A DNA stretch of 64,000 bases, from positions 10,732-74,731 of the forward strand of contig JAWKNQ010000008.1 of the NCBI GenBank assembly GCA_041391605.1. Direction: 5' to 3'. The notes beneath the pieces are model-generated. The model was not told the origin of the DNA. It searched no databases and saw only the letters and a program-made list of their open reading frames with translations. Source of the DNA: Bacteroidia bacterium. Its GTDB lineage: Bacteria > Bacteroidota > Bacteroidia > NS11-12g > UBA955. Shown here in pieces: positions 31,932 through 38,680 of the stretch. Every line of letters begins with the position of its first letter. Position 1 is the first letter of the stretch. The translations under genes were made by a program, and so were the position numbers.

Positions 31932-32254
31932 AACTGAATTAAACTATTAAACTGCAAAAGTAGTTGTTTCCAATTAAATAGAAGGAAATGTTTGTGTCAT
32001 ATTTTGGATGAAGCAGCTTGATTATGGCAAATAAGCAATATAACGAAACTCGCATAACGAATGCCAACTCCGAATCAGCCTAAGGCTGACGGAGAGGTTA
32101 AAGGAGAATGAGAACGAAAGCGGAAGGTTCAATTCTAGAATGGACTTCCAAGTTATCTACTTCACGTTTGGCAATATGTTTGGTGTTGTATCAGCCTAAG
32201 GCTGATGAGAAAAGTTCACCAACCAATTACCAGCATTTGTCGCTCGCGTATGTG

Positions 32255-32392
32255 TCTGAACTTGGATTTGGGGAGATTATAATGATTAACGAGAATCTAA
32301 GGCAAAAACTTCTAGCAAATCCCAGAAACGTGTCCGCCTGCGGAGGATCTCAGGAATCCAAGTTCAGACGATCGCATCACGGATGCCTTTTT
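32255..32392 (+). ncRNA. candidate small structured RNA (unclassified)
   Basis: A perfect 14-bp inverted repeat, TCTGAACTTGGATT (32255-32268) / AATCCAAGTTCAGA (32355-32368), encloses smaller hairpins (TCCGC-CT-GCGGA). It is followed by GCATC-ACG-GATGC plus CTTTTT (32374-32392), which looks like a terminator. Strand and function are inferred only. Confidence 0.3.
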
Positions 32393-32926
32393 GAACCTTC
32401 CTTTTTATGATTCCCTGTAGCAGAGTGCTGCGCTGCGCTCCGCACACGCTACAGGGTAAGCAAATTGGTATGAAAGTTTAAGGTTGATGTAAATACTCCA
32501 AATTTCGTTTAAACTTTCATGCAATTTGCTAAAATTTAACTTGTATTTCTTAGCCCAATTTCGTAACTTAATTACTGCGGCGTGCGTTTGCGATTTTCTT
32601 GTATTTTTTTTCATTTTTATTATGGTTTTTTAATTTTAGTGTTTTAACTTTGGTATAGATACTTCAAACTAAAACTATTGAAGCACTATAAAGTGGGAAG
32701 CCTTATTTTAAAAACTTCTAAGGCTCCCCCACTTTTTTAAAACTATGAAAACACTAAGGAAACATATCACCTTAAACCCAGTACACTTTGTACAAAAAAC
32801 TGAAAATGAATTTCGTCCTTTATTAAAAGGATTAATTCTTTTTCTAATTGTTTTCATTCGTTGCTTAAAAGCTTCCCTTTCTTCCTTTGTTACTTTATTC
32901 CAATCTCAAGACTACTTCGTATGTTC

Positions 32927-33395
32927 TCAAAGACGTTTTTATACGTTTCAAAGACAAATCAATCTCCTTCAAAGACGCTATACTAAGTTCATTGGTTTCT
33001 ATACTTTTTTCCCTAAGCTCTGTATAAAACATCTGATGTTCTGTATAAATCACCTAAAGTCCTATATAAAAAGTATGAAGTCCTATATAAAACACCCAAT
33101 GTTCTATATAAATTGCCTAAAGTCCTATATAAAAAGTGTGAAGGCCTATATAAAACACCCAATGTTCTATATAAAATGCCTAAAGTCCTATATAAAAAAT
33201 GTGAAGGCCTATATAAAACTCCTAAAGCTCTATAAAAAAAGTGTGAAGGCCTATATAAAACACCCAATGTTCTGTATAAATCACCTAAAGGACTATATAA
33301 AATGTGTGAAGGCCTATATAAAACTTGCTAAGTCCTGTACTTTTTTCCCGAGTGTCTATATAATTTGGTGGAAGTCCTATATAAATTATACGAGT
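32927..33395. repeat. 21-bp-phased direct-repeat (iteron-like) array
   Basis: TCAAAGAC occurs 3 times at exactly 21-bp spacing (32927, 32948, 32969). Then about 18 units with core (C)CTATATAAA occur every 20-22 bp (33018-33395), organised as a 63-bp higher-order repeat with three unit subtypes. Confidence 0.9.
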
Positions 33396-33857
33396 CCATT
33401 TAAGATGATGTTAAGACTTTTCATTTACCCCATAACCCACTATTTTAGAACGCATTGCACCTATAATTTAGATTCAAGTTCCACAATGCACCAAACAAGC
33501 AACTCCTTATTAAGTTTTATGCTTAACCATATAAACCGCATTGCTAAAAATACTATTCAAGAAGGGAAAACTGTATTTAAACTCCCCAGAGGAGATACGG
33601 ATGATTGGCGATTTGCGCGACCCATGTTGTTGCCTTAGCTTTATCCAAGTAATTGTATGCTGAATACAGATCGTACAAACTAAATTTTATTCAAAACTCA
33701 ATTGAAGCAAGTTCTTGCTTTCGCCAAAACGAAAAACGGAACTCTACCTGGAACCTTCTTGCCCAAACTGAAGCAATTCATTTTGGAAACAAGAGAAAAA
33801 AAATGATGGTAGTCCATTAAAATAAAAATAAAAAATAACCTTAAAAAAAATAAAATT

Positions 33858-34814
33858 ATGAAAAAATCATTTTCTTGTACCGAGCGCGAATTGTATGCGC
33901 TGTGTTTATCAGGCTTGGAAACATGTTCTCAAAACATCGACAGCCTAAAACGTATTAGTCCGCTTTACACGCCTGAATATGTGGAAACACAAAAAAGGCG
34001 TGTGATAGAGACTATGAACTCCTTTGACCATCGACAAAGGGTTGCTCAAAAAGGCAAATTAAGAGCCTTATTGAGTACATCTGCTGAGATGGCATTGGGA
34101 GTTTGGAGACGACTTCGCTTGTATGTGAAGAACAGCTCCGACCCAGATATATTGAAGCAGAATCTCAATGAGATGGGCTTGATGTATCTCGAGAAAGCCA
34201 AACGTCAACAGTGGGAGGAGTATTTAAAGATGCTGCAATCTGGGCAGTCATATATCGTCAACAACAAAGCGGCATTGCTTGAGAATCAAAACATGCCAGA
34301 GAGTTTTGAAGACGAATATGCGGCTGCCCAGGCAGATTTCCTCTCTAAGTACGACGCCTATTTGCGAACGACTATAGAGGGTAAATTGAGTACAGAAAAT
34401 CATATAGAATCTCTAAACGAAATGTACGAAGATTTACAGAAGATGTTTGCTGCGGGAAGGGAGGCATTTGCCGACGATAAAACCAAGGCAAATCTCTTCA
34501 GAATTACCTCTACCTTAAACGCCATCAACAACACAGGTTGGGCTGGCATTAAGGGAAAGGTGAAAGACACTCAAGGCAATCTTGCCGTAATTGAGGGTCT
34601 TGAGATAGAGGTCGTCGAGACCGACGACTTGGTGTTACAGGAACCCGACGGAAGCTTTATGTTCAACCACATGGCTGCGGGAACTTACACCCTCCTCTTA
34701 AGAGCCCCTGGCTACAAAGAGGAGCTTGCCCCGGTGGAAGTAAAAACCGACACCTACACCAACATCGAAATCGAGATGTTTGCCGATGAGGTGGATGACC
34801 CTGTAGAAGACTAA
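33858..34814 (+). CDS. hypothetical protein with C-terminal carboxypeptidase-regulatory-like beta-sandwich
   Basis: 318-aa ORF with a helical N-terminal part. The C-terminus GIKGKVKDTQGNLAVIEGLEIEVVETDD...DGSFMFNHMAAGTYTLLLRAPGYKE is CarbopepD_reg-like. It is visibly more GC-rich than its neighbours. Confidence 0.6.
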   Translation: MKKSFSCTERELYALCLSGLETCSQNIDSLKRISPLYTPEYVETQKRRVIETMNSFDHRQRVAQKGKLRALLSTSAEMALGVWRRLRLYVKNSSDPDILKQNLNEMGLMYLEKAKRQQWEEYLKMLQSGQSYIVNNKAALLENQNMPESFEDEYAAAQADFLSKYDAYLRTTIEGKLSTENHIESLNEMYEDLQKMFAAGREAFADDKTKANLFRITSTLNAINNTGWAGIKGKVKDTQGNLAVIEGLEIEVVETDDLVLQEPDGSFMFNHMAAGTYTLLLRAPGYKEELAPVEVKTDTYTNIEIEMFADEVDDPVED

Positions 34815-34834
34815 AACTATAAACAACACAACTA

Positions 34835-34865
34835 TACCCCTGCAGGAAACTGTAGGGGTATTTTT
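34835..34865 (+). terminator. rho-independent terminator
   Basis: TACCCCTGCAG-GAAA-CTGTAGGGGTA (11-bp stem, GAAA loop) followed by T5. Confidence 0.85.
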
Positions 34866-35519: not shown

Positions 35520-36233
35520 TCAAAGTATTACCCCCAACTTTAAATGCAAGGTAGAATAATTTCTTGAAGGCCTAAAATTAAAATCATTGGGATCAATATT
35601 CCTATTTGGTTGCCTTCTCACTTTTTCATAATTATAATTATATGTTCCTTCAATTGATATTGAAAAATGATTCTTTATTAGTATTCCAACACTATTGCCT
35701 ACTCCTATTCCTATACTGTTATATGGATTTCGTGAAGTGACAAATTCTCCCCATAAAGAAGCTCTTATGTAGTCTACAAAATATTCTTCTCCTAATCCAT
35801 ACCTATAGTTGGCTGATATATTTGGAGACATGTAAAACATTTTATATCTAAATGTTCGTCCTGTTCCTAATCTAAAAGATTTAAAACCATATGTTATAGT
35901 TTTACCAGGCTCCATTTCAGGTCTATCAGGCTGAGATCTATCTATAAAATAATCTGTGGTACTATAAATTGAATAATAATCCAATTTGGCAAAACACTTT
36001 CTCCAATAATACACGGATAAGGAATAATATTTCGTTGATTCAGCTCTTTTTAAATTGTCTCCATCACCATTGAAAAAATCAACATAATTATTACCTAATT
36101 CGAAAAGAATTCTGCTATTTCGTTTGACAGGTGCAATTGAATCTGTGTCATTTGATGAATAGATACTAGACTTCAATAGGAATAAAAAAAGAAAAAGAAG
36201 CAAAACCTTAATACCATTCATAAGTAAAATCAC
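35520..36233 (-). CDS. hypothetical outer-membrane beta-barrel-like protein
   Basis: 237-aa ORF with a signal peptide and an alternating aromatic/polar pattern rich in Tyr, Gly and Asn. It is the only sizeable minus-strand gene in the island. Confidence 0.5.
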   Translation of the reverse strand: MILLMNGIKVLLLFLFLFLLKSSIYSSNDTDSIAPVKRNSRILFELGNNYVDFFNGDGDNLKRAESTKYYSLSVYYWRKCFAKLDYYSIYSTTDYFIDRSQPDRPEMEPGKTITYGFKSFRLGTGRTFRYKMFYMSPNISANYRYGLGEEYFVDYIRASLWGEFVTSRNPYNSIGIGVGNSVGILIKNHFSISIEGTYNYNYEKVRRQPNRNIDPNDFNFRPSRNYSTLHLKLGVIL

Positions 36234-36584
36234 TATAAATTGAACTTAAATATACTCATCTCCGAATTCAAATATAAATCATTAGTTTAAAGTTTGCTAT
36301 CTTTTGAATATTATTCATGGTATTTTCAATAACACATATTAAGAAAACATACTCTTTGATGCTCGCTAACGCATCCCACCACAACATACCAAGAAACTAC
36401 CCTTCCACAACCTTATTAATTAGCAAAACTCCTAACAGTCTGTCGTAACTATAAATAGGTATTTTGGGGAAATAAAGGGGTAAAAACTTGTTTATGTTGC
36501 CCGTAAGTTTGAAATTGCAAATCAAACACTTACAAACACTTGAATTGCTTAATCAAAAAGAACACAAGCAATTAAATCAACCCT

Positions 36585-38680
36585 ATGGAACAAGAAGGAG
36601 GAAATGGAGGAAAGGAAGATGGAGGTATGAGTAAGTTAGCAGATATTTTAGAACAGACCCCAAATCACACATCAAGCAATACGAAAATAAGTAATGACAA
36701 TAGGCGTAAATCAGACAGTATCACCAATAAAATTTTGTTTTCTAATTGAGCTGCTCTGAAAGCAAATTTGAACGAGCGGTTAAAATTGCGTTTTCGTATT
36801 AGAGGTGGAATTTTCAGCCCAATTTTACCTCTTCATTCTGTATTGCCAGACGAATTTAAAAATGAATATGCTATTAGAGTATGACGCTTTAAATTACTAT
36901 AAAAACACAATAGACAATTTTGACCCTGACATTATTCTTTACGACAATTCTTTGGACGTAGAATATGCTAAGACATTAATTGGAACAGGACTTTACTAAC
37001 AATTGAAGACTTTCTTGCTGACACTGAAAAGGCGAAATTAAATACGGAATAAGTGTTCCTGAACTAATTTCCAACATTATTGAAACAGAGTTTAAGTTTG
37101 TAAGAAATGACAATTTAAAACTTTCCTTAAACCTTACACAAAATTCAGGCTTATTCTTAAAATCATTTATAGGTTTGCTTTGTAGATAGCTTTCAAACGG
37201 AAATAAGTAATCCAATTAAAAATCGTATCCTCATTTTGAACAACCCGAAATAACTTTTGAAAATATTACTGACCATTTTCAAATGAAATAGTAGCACGTT
37301 GGACATCAATATGCAAGAAATCAAATCGTTTCCCGAAGGAAGAGCGTTGGTTTAAGGGCGAAGGTGTTTATTTTCTCAATGAAACAAGGCTAAACGACAT
37401 TATTAACTATTGGAATTTGAGGGCACTTGGTTGGAGTATTATTCCTATACCGTTAAGCCAAATTGACAACCCATATTTTTGCTGGTTTTATAGAAAGATT
37501 TAGTAAATATCAATTAGCAAAATCAGAAAATTTATCAATGTCAATTATTAGCTTTCAAATCAGCGTAACAACGACAACTGAACAAAGGCAAAAAATTGAC
37601 CAAAAGCTCAAGAAATAGAGGAACAAGATTGATGTCAAACTGAATTTTGCATTTCGAGCTGGTTTCCCAGATATTGGGCGGAAGAAAAGTCTGTTTTAGA
37701 AGCCGACAAAGTTTTATGTGGAAAAACACAAATTAGCTCTGCATATTCGCAAGTGGAAGTTCAAGAAAATCGGGTAAAGTTCCAAAACCGATGATTTACC
37801 ATTCAAACTTAAATACAATTACAACCTGACAGCCTCTCATAAAGAAGTAAATCTCATTCAATTACTTTGACGAGTATTTGAACAGATGCAGGCCTGATAT
37901 ATGGTATAGAAACTATTGATTGGGTAAGATTGACACATTCTTTTGGTCGAGATAAGTGGCGATTATCTAAAACTGGTCTAAGCCACTGCGTTAGACGAGA
38001 CGATAGTGAAGTGTATTTTTATGTTCCCAAAGCAAAAGATTTTTCAAAGTGTTTTTCTCTAAAGCTGGAAATAAATTAAATGAAACTTGAAATGGTCGTT
38101 TAGCAAATGAAGTATTAAAAAATATTGGAGGCATACAAGGTTCATATTTTTTGCAAAATAAATCTTCTCTCAAAATACTTGAGTTAATTGAAGACGGAAG
38201 AAAACTGTTTATCACCCACAATTAGTTGGAGAAATAAGAAAAGTTTAAAGACCAATGATAATGAACAAGTAAACTCTTATGTTAAAAGAATAATAGAAAA
38301 CAAAATAATTGAGTTTGGTTCAATTCTACAATGTGAGGTTTGTCATCAGCACGCATTTTATCTTCCATCAAATTGAGGGGAAACAATGCCTTGTGCTATT
38401 TGCAGAAATAATTTTAGTCTGCCAATGCACCACAAACCAAATAAAATGGAAGCAGCATCGTGGAATTGGACCCTTCAGTAAAAACAATAAAGTAGGTGGT
38501 GTAATAACAGTATTTTTAACTCTAAAAGTTATTCAACCAGAGATTGCTGACACTACAGGTAATATGTCTGCACTAATCGGTTTTGAGCTTTTAAAAGACA
38601 ACAATATAAAAAGAAGTTGACCTTGCAGTTATGCTTCAGGAAAAACACAAAGACAGTGTTCCACCCGACTTAATTTTTTA
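36585..38680 (+). pseudogene. heavily frame-disrupted remnant of a large gene (Zn-ribbon plus nuclease-like C-terminus)
   Basis: About 2.1 kb with no ORF over 103 aa, yet protein-like stretches hop among the three + frames. Examples are YVPKAKDFSKCFSLK / AGNKLNETWNGRLANEVLKNIGGIQGSYFLQNKSSLKILELIEDGRKLFITHN / KIIEFGSILQCEVCHQHAFY / MPCAICRNNFSLP / GIGPFSKNNKVGGVITVFLTLKVIQPEIADTTGNMSALIGFELLKD / EVDLAVMLQEKHKDSVPPDLIF. Confidence 0.55.

What the first reader, a model, noticed from the sequence alone, without database searches (positions are those of the whole stretch)
32927..33395. Dense 21-bp-phased iteron-like array at the left edge of the accessory island
Seen in the sequence:
- Three TCAAAGAC boxes lie exactly 21 bp apart.
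- They are followed by about 18 boxes with core (C)CTATATAAA every 20-22 bp.
- The boxes are arranged as a 63-bp super-repeat of three unit subtypes (...AAAGTGTGAAGG / ...ACACCCAATGTT / ...TGCCTAAAGT).
- The array itself is partly duplicated. TACTTTTTTCCC(T/G)A precedes both 33018 and 33356.

Established knowledge: a 21-bp spacing is two helical turns, so all boxes face one side of the DNA. This is the geometry of plasmid or phage iterons (R6K, P1, F, pSC101) and of centromere-like par sites (sopC, parC).

Inference:
- I recognise no Rep, Par or recombinase gene nearby.
- The only adjacent candidate is a 69-aa basic ORF on the minus strand (32405-32614).
- The 297-codon ORF that the track calls across the array (with an ORF on the opposite strand too) looks like a by-product of a 21-bp (7-codon) periodicity.
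- The location between the conserved rhodanese genes and the foreign-looking island suggests a relic origin or partition site of an integrated element, or a multi-site binding platform for an unknown protein.
Basis: partly seen in the sequence, partly recalled or inferred. Interest (0 to 1): 0.65.

Follow-up and report, generated by a model that had tools for sequence, protein, structure and literature searches.

The report
Conserved 21-bp array plus partner gene
The 21-bp repeat array is real, and similar arrays sit just upstream of relatives of the neighbouring 318-residue protein gene in many uncultured Bacteroidia, so it looks like half of an undescribed array-plus-protein module of unknown function, not a leftover plasmid origin.

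Summary
Units stay in an exact 21-bp register from 32927 to about 33395, with 15 CTRTATAAA boxes and a 63-bp super-repeat.

The origin or partition-relic reading is not supported. The 64-kb window has no Rep, Par or integrase gene and no cluster of DnaA boxes.

The array does have a conserved partner: the gene just downstream (33858-34814, 318 aa). It encodes a helical N-domain with no database match and a C-terminal CarboxypepD_reg beta-sandwich.
- A 21/42/63-bp periodic array lies directly upstream of its homologue (down to about 25% identity) in 11 other independent metagenomic loci, with a weak one in a twelfth.
- Two more gene calls carry heptad-repeat N-terminal extensions.
- Two loci have no array.
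- Unit sequences differ between loci; period and position are kept.
- No other neighbouring gene is shared.

The 297-codon ORF has no homologues. The reading frame is not conserved across the family: four loci have no frame spanning the array on the gene's strand. The ORF is therefore mostly a by-product.

Close relatives nevertheless share a promoter-like box and an identical ATG context upstream of the array, which I cannot explain.

How the module works is unresolved. The array is most likely a multi-site binding platform, at DNA or RNA level.

The parts
32641..32657 (+). Conserved promoter-like block TTTTAACTTTGGTATAG. It contains a perfect Bacteroidota-type -7 box (TAnnTTTG).
   Evidence: The exact 13-mer TAACTTTGGTATA sits 282, 352 and 283 bp upstream of the array in the window, L015 and L016. 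That it acts as a promoter is inferred from the motif and its conservation.
32690..32744 (+). Leader hairpin followed by a T-run (AAAGTGGGAAGCCTTA...TAAGGCTCCCCCACTTTTTT). It looks like an intrinsic terminator or attenuator.
   Evidence: The fold of 32658-32760 gives -21.7 kcal/mol, z = -3.84, and 0 of 200 shuffles fold as well. L015 also has a hairpin here, read by eye from the alignment, but with no T-run. Its role is not established.
32741..32752 (+). Conserved 12-mer AACTATGAAAAC, which contains the ATG of the array-spanning ORF.
   Evidence: Identical in the window (32741), L015 (617) and L032 (2932).
32745..33638 (+). 297-codon open frame that spans the array. It is mostly a by-product of the 7-codon period; it may be translated as a leader with no constraint on its sequence.
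   Evidence: No Pfam family and no homologue at E<=0.001. Equivalent frames are absent in L019, L020, L021/L025 and L028. In L030 the frame reads the repeat unit in three different registers. The frame nevertheless extends 215 nt upstream and 243 nt downstream of the array.
32927..32989 (+). Degenerate left edge of the array: three TCAAAGAC units in 21-bp register.
33011..33395 (+). Core of the array: about 18 units of 21 bp with the box CTRTATAAA, organised as a 63-bp higher-order repeat of three unit subtypes.
33396..33857 (+). Spacer between array and gene. It ends in an A-rich stretch just before the start codon.
   Evidence: Only the A-rich stretch before the ATG is shared with other loci. 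A weak terminator-like hairpin lies at 33617-33633.
33858..34814 (+). Partner gene, 318 aa: an all-helical N-domain of about 220 residues with no database match, followed by a CarboxypepD_reg-like beta-sandwich.
   Evidence: Pfam PF13620/PF13715 match residues 231-309 only. AlphaFold2 models have pLDDT 84.9 (whole protein) and 92.1 (N-domain). The N-domain has no fold match: best E-value 0.2 against PDB and 0.07 against BFVD. The sequence is 100% identical to P0001 from 'MAG: Bacteroidia bacterium'. The top 150 hits of a profile search include about 80 full-length members, each representing a 50%-identity cluster.
34834..34861 (+). Intrinsic-terminator-like hairpin that closes the unit.
   Evidence: 12-bp stem with 6 G-C pairs, followed by TTTTAT.

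Best explanation
The array is the cis-acting half of a conserved, self-contained two-part module: a 21-bp-phased tandem array followed on the same strand by a gene for a protein of about 315 residues (helical N-domain with no known relative, plus a CarboxypepD_reg beta-sandwich).

Shown:
- The module recurs in many uncultured Bacteroidia, in unrelated genomic neighbourhoods.
- Period and position are kept while unit sequences change.
- The one pair of closely related proteins that could be tested (L018 and L019, 69% identical) has related units in the same orientation.

Inferred:
- Each unit (a short conserved core plus a variable spacer, one per two helical turns) is a binding site, so the array is a multivalent platform that co-evolves with a protein.
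- That protein is most likely the adjacent gene product, and the array controls or is controlled by it.
- I favour recognition at the DNA level, as an operator or roadblock-like nucleoprotein array lying inside or just before the transcription unit (about 0.4).
- The second choice is a co-transcribed repeat RNA leader that binds or titrates the protein, as in type III toxin-antitoxin systems (about 0.25).

It is not a replication origin or a centromere relic. The 297-codon ORF is largely a by-product of the 7-codon period.
For: Association of array and gene:
- The downstream gene has homologues of 21-60% identity at L013-L032.
- A periodic array (lags 21, 42 or 63) lies directly upstream in the window, L013/L014, L015, L016, L018, L019, L020, L021/L025, L026, L029, L030, L031 and L032. 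L028 has a weak one.
- P0046 and P0074 carry heptad-repeat N-terminal extensions in their gene calls.
- In 181 kb of window plus these loci, the only segments with lags of 21, 42 or 63 are these arrays.
- No other neighbouring gene is shared.

Evolution of the units:
- Unit consensus sequences are unrelated between loci, except L018 and L019, whose proteins are 69% identical. Those two match in the same orientation, z = 3.

Not a conserved coding repeat: frames not conserved; L030 reads the unit in three registers.

Geometry:
- The period is 21 bp, with occasional 22-bp units tolerated in L021 and L030.
- Each unit has a short conserved core.
- Cores show weak dyad symmetry: Fisher combined p = 2e-4, driven by 3-5 of 13 arrays.
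- In several loci the array ends only 27-70 nt before the ATG.

Transcription unit in the window's clade: a conserved -7-type box lies upstream of the array and a terminator follows the gene.

Against an origin or centromere.
Against: - No binding has been shown.
- The protein has no recognisable DNA- or RNA-binding domain.
- The family is not basic: median pI 5.9, and 4.9 for the window's protein.
- Two homologues (L023, L027) have no array.
- In the window's clade the array lies 280-350 bp downstream of the conserved promoter-like box and 360-850 bp upstream of the gene. That is unusual for an operator.
- Open frames on the gene's strand span the array in 10 of 14 loci (6 of 14 on the opposite strand). 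In several loci they extend well beyond the array, from a conserved ATG context. This hints at translation, which the binding model does not need.
- Between two near-identical loci (L021 and L025) the array has diverged 4.2% and the gene 0.6%. Sequence constraint on the array is therefore weak.
Confidence: 0.55

Rival explanations
1. [quoted passage not shown] The array is transcribed from the conserved upstream promoter together with the gene. The repeated 21-nt RNA units bind and neutralise or regulate the protein. The module acts as an addiction or defence element.
For: - It has the type III layout: a tandem array directly upstream of a single protein gene on the same strand, with a promoter upstream of the array (features listed in PMC3401426; conserved box).
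- Units diverge together with the protein.
- It is an autonomous two-part module with no shared neighbour and a patchy, rare distribution.
- Several loci sit among restriction-modification, RES, HNH or P4-cII-like genes.
Against: - Units are 21 nt in 8-29 copies. Known families have units of 31-62 nt in 1.9-5.6 copies.
- No terminator is consistently present between array and gene. L018 has only a 27-nt gap.
- Arrays show no consistent RNA structure: z-scores of -3.2, +1.05, -1.5 and +3.3.
- The protein is not ToxN-like. It has no PADLOC or Pfam nuclease match.
- No catalytic-type residue is conserved across the family apart from one aspartate.
Confidence: 0.25
2. Translated leader or genuine repeat protein. 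The array-spanning ORF is translated, either as a heptad-repeat protein or as a leader whose translation (not its sequence) is what matters, for example to keep transcription going into the downstream gene.
For: - The period is exactly 7 codons in all loci.
- An open frame on the gene's strand spans the array in 10 of 14 loci. It extends far beyond the array in the window (215 nt upstream, 243 nt downstream), L015 (255 and 795 nt), L016 and L032.
- The ATG context AACTATGAAAAC is identical in three loci.
- The ORF ends 13-56 nt before the partner gene's ATG in L015, L018, L026, L029 and L030.
Against: - ORF297 has no homologue in 5.8 billion proteins, and the ORFs of different loci share no similarity.
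- L019, L020, L021/L025 and L028 have no spanning frame on the gene's strand. L020 and L021/L025 have stops in all six frames.
- In L030 a single ORF reads the unit in three registers.
- Opposite-strand frames are open in 6 of 14 arrays.
- The predicted peptides have odd composition, rich in Cys, His and Tyr.
Confidence: 0.12
3. Functionless minisatellite that persists by slippage or unequal crossing-over and simply travels with the gene. Alternatively, an iteron origin or centromere relic.
For: - The array has a higher-order (42/63-bp) structure with degenerate edges, typical of unequal crossing-over.
- Divergence is near neutral in the L021-L025 pair.
- Unrelated 21-bp arrays with a CTATATAAA core exist in diverse genomes.
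- A 21-bp spacing is the classic iteron geometry (established knowledge).
Against: - A functionless 170-600-bp array would not be expected to persist upstream of one protein family down to about 25% identity, in 12 independent loci with different neighbours.
- Phase is kept almost free of indels in degenerate arrays.
- For the origin or centromere version: no Rep, Par, integrase or transfer genes and no DnaA-box cluster in 64 kb, and no plasmid or phage homologue of the partner.
Confidence: 0.08

Closest known systems
Iteron arrays with an adjacent cognate initiator gene (R6K, pPS10, F, P1, pSC101) and centromere arrays placed upstream of their own operon (R1 parC-ParR, pSK41 parC, tubC-TubR)
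   Same: - Direct repeats with about two helical turns between sites.
- A short conserved core plus a spacer.
- The array lies immediately next to, and evolves with, a specific protein gene.
- The array sits upstream of that gene, where it could also act as an operator.
   Different: - 8-29 units, where iteron arrays usually have 3-10.
- The partner protein has no winged-helix, ribbon-helix-helix or helix-turn-helix domain and is acidic to neutral.
- No NTPase or Rep partner is present.
- The setting is chromosomal and non-mobile.
- No DnaA boxes.
- In the window's clade the array lies inside the putative transcription unit.
Type III toxin-antitoxin loci (ToxIN, CptIN, TenpIN; PMC3401426)
   Same: - Order of parts: promoter, tandem nucleotide array, then a single protein gene on the same strand.
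- Array sequences are specific to their locus.
- An autonomous two-part module, often found in variable or defence-rich neighbourhoods.
   Different: - Units of 21 nt (known: 31-62 nt) in 8-29 copies (known: 2-6).
- No obligatory terminator between array and gene.
- No conserved RNA fold.
- The protein is about 315 aa, with a helical bundle and a transthyretin-like sandwich, not a ToxN or AbiQ endoribonuclease.
Coding tandem repeats with unit lengths divisible by three (for example Borg tandem repeats, bioRxiv 10.1101/2022.05.18.492195, seen only as a listing)
   Same: - The unit length is a multiple of three.
- The array evolves fast.
- Gene callers place an ORF across it.
   Different: - The frame is not conserved across the family.
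- Some arrays have stops in all six frames.
- What is conserved is the position upstream of one particular gene family.

Membership tests
Iteron-type replication origin (plasmid or phage) | Direct repeats of 17-22 bp phased at about 21-22 bp | tested here: met
   Exact 21-bp register over about 22 units.
Iteron-type replication origin (plasmid or phage) | Adjacent rep gene encoding a winged-helix initiator | tested here: not met
   No Rep family anywhere in the window. The adjacent protein is a helical bundle plus beta-sandwich with no fold match.
Iteron-type replication origin (plasmid or phage) | DnaA boxes or a host-factor site cluster next to the iterons | tested here: not met
   The window has 12 TTATCCACA-like sites at one mismatch or fewer. 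The nearest is at 37717, and none lies within 4 kb of the array.
Iteron-type replication origin (plasmid or phage) | Resides on a plasmid, phage or integrated element | tested here: not met
   No integrase, transfer or partition genes in 64 kb. The partner protein is absent from PLSDB, INPHARED and IMG/VR.
Iteron-type replication origin (plasmid or phage) | Supports autonomous replication | not testable with these tools
   Needs a cloning experiment.
Partition centromere (parC, parS, sopC, tubC) | Adjacent ParA, ParM or TubZ NTPase and a centromere-binding protein | tested here: not met
   No such families found. Homologous loci share only the single partner gene.
Type III toxin-antitoxin | Tandem nucleotide array upstream of the protein gene on the same strand, with a promoter upstream of the array | tested here: met
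   Layout conserved in 12 loci. A conserved -7-type box lies upstream of the array in the window, L015 and L016. The criteria come from PMC3401426.
Type III toxin-antitoxin | Repeat unit of 31-62 nt in 1.9-5.6 copies | tested here: not met
   21 nt in 8-29 copies.
Type III toxin-antitoxin | Terminator between the repeats and the toxin gene | tested here: inconclusive
   The window has only a weak hairpin at 33617-33633. L018 has a 27-nt gap with no hairpin.
Type III toxin-antitoxin | ToxN, CptN or TenpN-type endoribonuclease toxin | tested here: not met
   No Pfam, PADLOC or NCBIfam match and no fold match.
Type III toxin-antitoxin | The protein is toxic and array RNA neutralises it | not testable with these tools
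   Needs expression experiments.
Genuine tandem-repeat protein | Reading frame and repeat peptide conserved among homologous loci, with detectable protein homologues | tested here: not met
   No homologue. No spanning frame on the gene's strand in L019, L020, L021/L025 or L028. The register changes inside the L030 ORF.
CRISPR or other guide-RNA arrays | Conserved repeats interspersed with unique spacers, plus cas or tas genes | tested here: not met
   The variable parts of the units are degenerate copies of one another, not unique spacers. No cas-like genes. Rfam finds nothing.

The most novel reading that the evidence does not exclude
The module is a new class of two-component system in Bacteroidia. 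A long 21-nt or 21-bp phased array is specifically recognised by a new fold of nucleic-acid-binding protein (helical bundle plus transthyretin-like domain). One possibility is a type III-like repeat-RNA/protein toxin-antitoxin or defence module with far shorter and more numerous units than any known. Another is a self-assembling nucleoprotein filament on DNA that gates its own expression.
Probability: 0.3. Interest if true: 0.85.

Novelty: new variant of a known kind. Interest (0 to 1): 0.64.

Why it matters
If the pairing is functional, it defines an uncharacterised protein family. About 80 full-length members, each representing a 50%-identity cluster, appear in the top 150 hits, and the list was cut off well above threshold. 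All are metagenomic Bacteroidia. Each member comes with its own rapidly evolving cognate repeat array.

That makes it a ready-made set of orthogonal array-protein pairs. It may also be a new nucleic-acid recognition fold, or a new toxin-antitoxin or defence-like architecture.

There is a practical point too. Gene callers routinely annotate these arrays as 130-490-aa hypothetical proteins, and the arrays break metagenome assemblies: in several loci the contig ends inside or just next to the array.

Tried and rejected
- **Searching by the box itself.** I scanned for three CTATATAAA boxes at 21-bp phase in 596 Gb of genomes and in IMG/VR. This returned 12 loci with 21-bp arrays from Bacteroidota, cyanobacteria, Rickettsiaceae, an archaeon and a virus. 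None has a gene related to anything in the window, and their neighbouring genes differ. I treat them as unrelated small tandem repeats.
- **Rfam** over 31.5-38.5 kb: nothing credible.
- **Protein homologues of ORF297:** none.
- **Exact-sequence look-up of the rhodanese gene:** not on record.
- **Fold searches of the N-domain** against PDB and BFVD: only generic long-helix matches, E > 0.06.
- **PADLOC, PHROGs, NCBIfam:** nothing for the N-domain.
- **Conserved element between array and gene:** only the A-rich stretch before the ATG. The 'ARSD' motif shared by L013, L015 and L016 is not present in the window.
- **Shared unit motif across loci:** none, apart from L018 and L019.
- **RNA structure of the arrays:** inconsistent.
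- **Chromosomal origin** (the cumulative GC-skew minimum lies near 36-37 kb): no DnaA-box cluster.
- **Literature searches:** no description of this module found.

Full report
**1. The observation**

The region 32927-33395 is a strictly phased tandem array.
- Printing it in 21-base rows keeps every box in the same column for about 22 units, with no indel.
- TCAAAGAC occurs at 32927, 32948 and 32969.
- CTRTATAAA occurs 15 times between 33020 and 33377, always at multiples of 21 bp. The window has 16 matches against 2.3 +/- 1.4 expected, and none of 100 shuffles reached 16.
- Tandem Repeats Finder reports periods of 21, 42, 63 (85-88% matches, 3.8-4.8 copies) and 105.
- TACTTTTTTCCC occurs only at 33002 and 33338, which are 16 units apart.
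- It is the only periodic segment in the 64-kb window.

The description is confirmed. The one correction is that spacing is exactly 21 bp, not 20-22.

**2. Context in the window**

The window comes from an uncultured Bacteroidia genome. The downstream protein is 100% identical to an NCBI entry from 'MAG: Bacteroidia bacterium' on a 74.9-kb contig.
- Left of the array are housekeeping genes: PNPase, guanylate kinase, a cytidylyltransferase, FloA, an E1 dehydrogenase, an ABC-F protein, short-chain dehydrogenases and the two rhodanese genes.
- Right of it are ordinary Bacteroidota accessory genes: cargo proteins of the type IX secretion system (T9SS), AraC and ArsR regulators, DoxX, Bax1-I, an S41 peptidase, a leucine-rich-repeat protein and a TonB-dependent receptor.
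- The window has no Rep, Par, integrase, relaxase or transfer gene, no tRNA gene, and no DnaA-box cluster. The nearest one-mismatch box is 4 kb from the array.

An origin or centromere relic therefore has nothing to support it beyond the geometry.

**3. The key result: the array has a conserved partner**

The gene immediately downstream (33858-34814, +, 318 aa) has a C-terminal CarboxypepD_reg-like domain and an N-terminal region of about 220 residues with no Pfam match.

A word-indexed search found only three homologues (44-46% identity). In all three loci the gene caller had placed an ORF directly upstream on the same strand. Each of those ORFs turned out to be a 21-bp tandem array with a completely different unit:
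- L015: ATGTACTCnGTCnCGCAyGyA, 21 units.
- L016: core GCTACAAC, 29 units.
- L013: cut off by the contig end.

I then fetched more distant relatives through a metagenome scan, a profile search and a full HMMER scan of 1.84 billion cluster representatives.
- The top 150 hits of that scan include about 80 full-length members, each representing a 50%-identity cluster. The list was still at E = 1e-65 when it was cut off, so the family is larger.
- Every further locus with enough upstream sequence was examined: L018, L019, L020, L021/L025, L026, L029, L030, L031 and L032. All carry a 21/42/63-periodic array of 5 to 24 or more units directly upstream.
- L028 has a weak array of 5-9 units.
- L023 and L027 have none.
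- L017 and L022 are cut off by contig ends.
- Two further cluster representatives (P0046, P0074) have N-terminal extensions made of 7-residue repeats, meaning the array was fused into the gene call.

In 181 kb of window plus family loci, the only segments with lags of 21, 42 or 63 are these upstream arrays. No other gene is shared between the loci. The conserved unit is therefore array plus this one gene.

**4. How the arrays evolve**

- Unit consensus sequences are unrelated between loci. The exception is L018 and L019, whose proteins are 69% identical and whose units match in the same orientation (z = 3).
- Each array has a short conserved core of 5-10 bp and a looser remainder. Many arrays have a 42- or 63-bp higher-order structure.
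- Phase is kept almost perfectly even in degenerate arrays, with occasional 22-bp units in L021 and L030.
- Between two near-identical loci from different samples (L021 and L025), the array differs at 4.2% of positions, the spacer at 6.9% and the gene at 0.6%. There are no indels and the copy number is the same.

So the sequence evolves fast while period, position and length persist. This is the pattern expected of binding sites that co-evolve with their binder. It is not expected of a coding repeat or of junk DNA.

**5. Coding or not**

Against a conserved coding repeat:
- ORF297 has no homologue at E <= 0.001 and no family match.
- Across the family, a frame on the gene's strand spans the whole array in 10 of 14 loci, and a frame on the opposite strand in 6 of 14.
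- L020 and L021/L025 have stops in all six frames. L019 is open only on the opposite strand.
- In L030 a single ORF passes through three different registers of the unit, reading I-Q, then H-P, then A-S.
- ORFs from different loci share no similarity.

One thing remains unexplained. In the window's own clade the frame on the gene's strand extends far beyond the array:
- Window: 215 nt upstream and 243 nt downstream. L015: 255 and 795 nt.
- It begins at an ATG inside a 12-mer (AACTATGAAAAC) that is identical in the window, L015 and L032.
- In several loci it ends 13-56 nt before the partner gene's ATG.

Translation of a leader with no constraint on its peptide sequence cannot be excluded.

**6. 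The transcription unit in the window**

- The 13-mer TAACTTTGGTATA contains a perfect Bacteroidota -7 box (TAnnTTTG; the motif itself is established knowledge). It lies 282, 352 and 283 bp upstream of the array in the window, L015 and L016.
- In the window it is followed by a strong hairpin with a T-run (z = -3.84), then the conserved ATG context.
- No comparable box lies between array and gene in any locus.
- A strong terminator follows the partner gene at 34834-34861.

I infer a unit spanning roughly 32640-34865 in which the array lies inside the transcribed leader. In other clades the array ends 27-70 nt before the ATG, where it could overlap the promoter.

**7. The protein**

- AlphaFold2 gives a confident model: pLDDT 84.9 for the whole protein and 92.1 for the N-domain alone. 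It consists of long helices (including residues 58-93 and 150-203) followed by a seven-stranded sandwich.
- Only the sandwich has structural relatives, the transthyretin-like domains of carboxypeptidases and the N-terminal extension of SusC.
- The N-domain matches nothing in PDB or BFVD.
- Family-wide near-invariant residues are mostly hydrophobic or aromatic, plus R61, D199 and an N-x-N-M-P motif. Nothing suggests an active site.
- The proteins are not basic: median pI 5.9.
- I see no signal peptide in the N-terminal sequence.

These data are neutral or mildly unfavourable for direct nucleic-acid binding.

**8. DNA or RNA?**

For DNA:
- One site per two helical turns.
- Tolerance of 22-bp units.
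- Cores that are often palindromic with no loop (TATATA, TGTACA, CCAATTGG, ATTTCGGAAAT). A permutation test for dyad symmetry gives Fisher p = 2e-4, driven by 3-5 of 13 arrays.

For RNA:
- The conserved promoter-like box upstream of the array.
- The type III toxin-antitoxin-like layout (criteria in PMC3401426).
- Defence- or mobility-flavoured neighbours in some loci: HsdR and DUF5131 in L013, a Bpu10I restriction-modification pair in L028, and P4-cII-like, RES and HNH genes in L031.

Against RNA:
- No consistent fold. Array z-scores range from -3.2 to +3.3.
- Units are far shorter and more numerous than in any type III family.
- No obligatory terminator between array and gene.

I put the DNA platform at about 0.4, repeat RNA at 0.25, translated leader at 0.12 and no function or origin relic at 0.08. 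The rest is unassigned.

**9. Verdict**

- The feature is real.
The 'relic origin or partition site' idea and the 69-aa ORF as partner do not.
- What is there is the upstream half of a conserved, apparently undescribed array-plus-protein module of uncultured Bacteroidia. Four literature searches found no description of it.
- It resembles iteron-Rep, parC-ParR and ToxI-ToxN pairs in logic, but fails the membership tests for each.

Noticed in passing
window 32060-32420: A strongly structured stretch just left of the module. It has two exact copies of the hairpin ATCAGCCTAAGGCTGA (32074, 32190). It also has a perfect 15-nt inverted repeat (32254-32268 / 32355-32369) nested inside a 16-nt one (32117-32132 / 32391-32406). 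Folded as RNA it gives -113 kcal/mol, z = -3.8. Rfam has no match. A 100-codon ORF (32108-32410) overlaps it. It could be a non-coding RNA or a small transposon remnant.
   Followed up: partly
It overlaps a block (TAACTTAAT at 32564) that is conserved on the plus strand upstream of the module in L015 and L016. It is probably not a gene.
   Followed up: partly
window 36233-38300: About 2 kb with no stop-to-stop frame longer than 80 codons on either strand (GC 32%). It lies near the cumulative GC-skew minimum, and almost every ORF to its right is on the plus strand. There is no DnaA-box cluster. It may be decayed genes or an unannotated non-coding region.
   Followed up: partly
L004 4337-4505 and L009 3346-3564: Two related Bacteroidota MAGs (L004 is labelled Raineyaceae) share an orthologous 21-bp array, CTATATAAAAGATAGGATTTC, with 9 and 11 units. 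It lies upstream of a conserved 352-aa gene (94% identical) whose product starts with a hydrophobic, lipoprotein-like N-terminus. This gene is unrelated to the family studied here. It is a second example of a conserved 21-bp array upstream of a gene.
   Followed up: partly
L008 11-100 and L011 3186-3465: Two cyanobacterial MAG contigs carry related 21-bp arrays, CTATATAAAAG(A/C)CTC(G/A)TTCAT, and both lie at contig ends. In L011 the array alternates with a GAGTATAAAAGCCTCATTAAA variant.
   Followed up: no
L013, L014, L017, L022, L031 (contig ends): Several contigs carrying the family gene end inside or just next to the array. These repeats therefore seem to break short-read assemblies, so the family's arrays are probably under-sampled in metagenomes.
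   Followed up: no
L018 about 2620, L019 about 1835, L027 about 70: In three loci the gene just upstream of the module appears to end in a T9SS C-terminal sorting domain (judged by eye, not scanned). T9SS cargo genes also occur near the module in L015, L030 and the window. This may be coincidence, given how common such genes are in Bacteroidota.
   Followed up: no
window 33368-33390 and 33462-33484: The last array unit can pair with a sequence 71 nt downstream (23 nt, 78% complementary). If the array is transcribed, this could hide the final unit.
   Followed up: no
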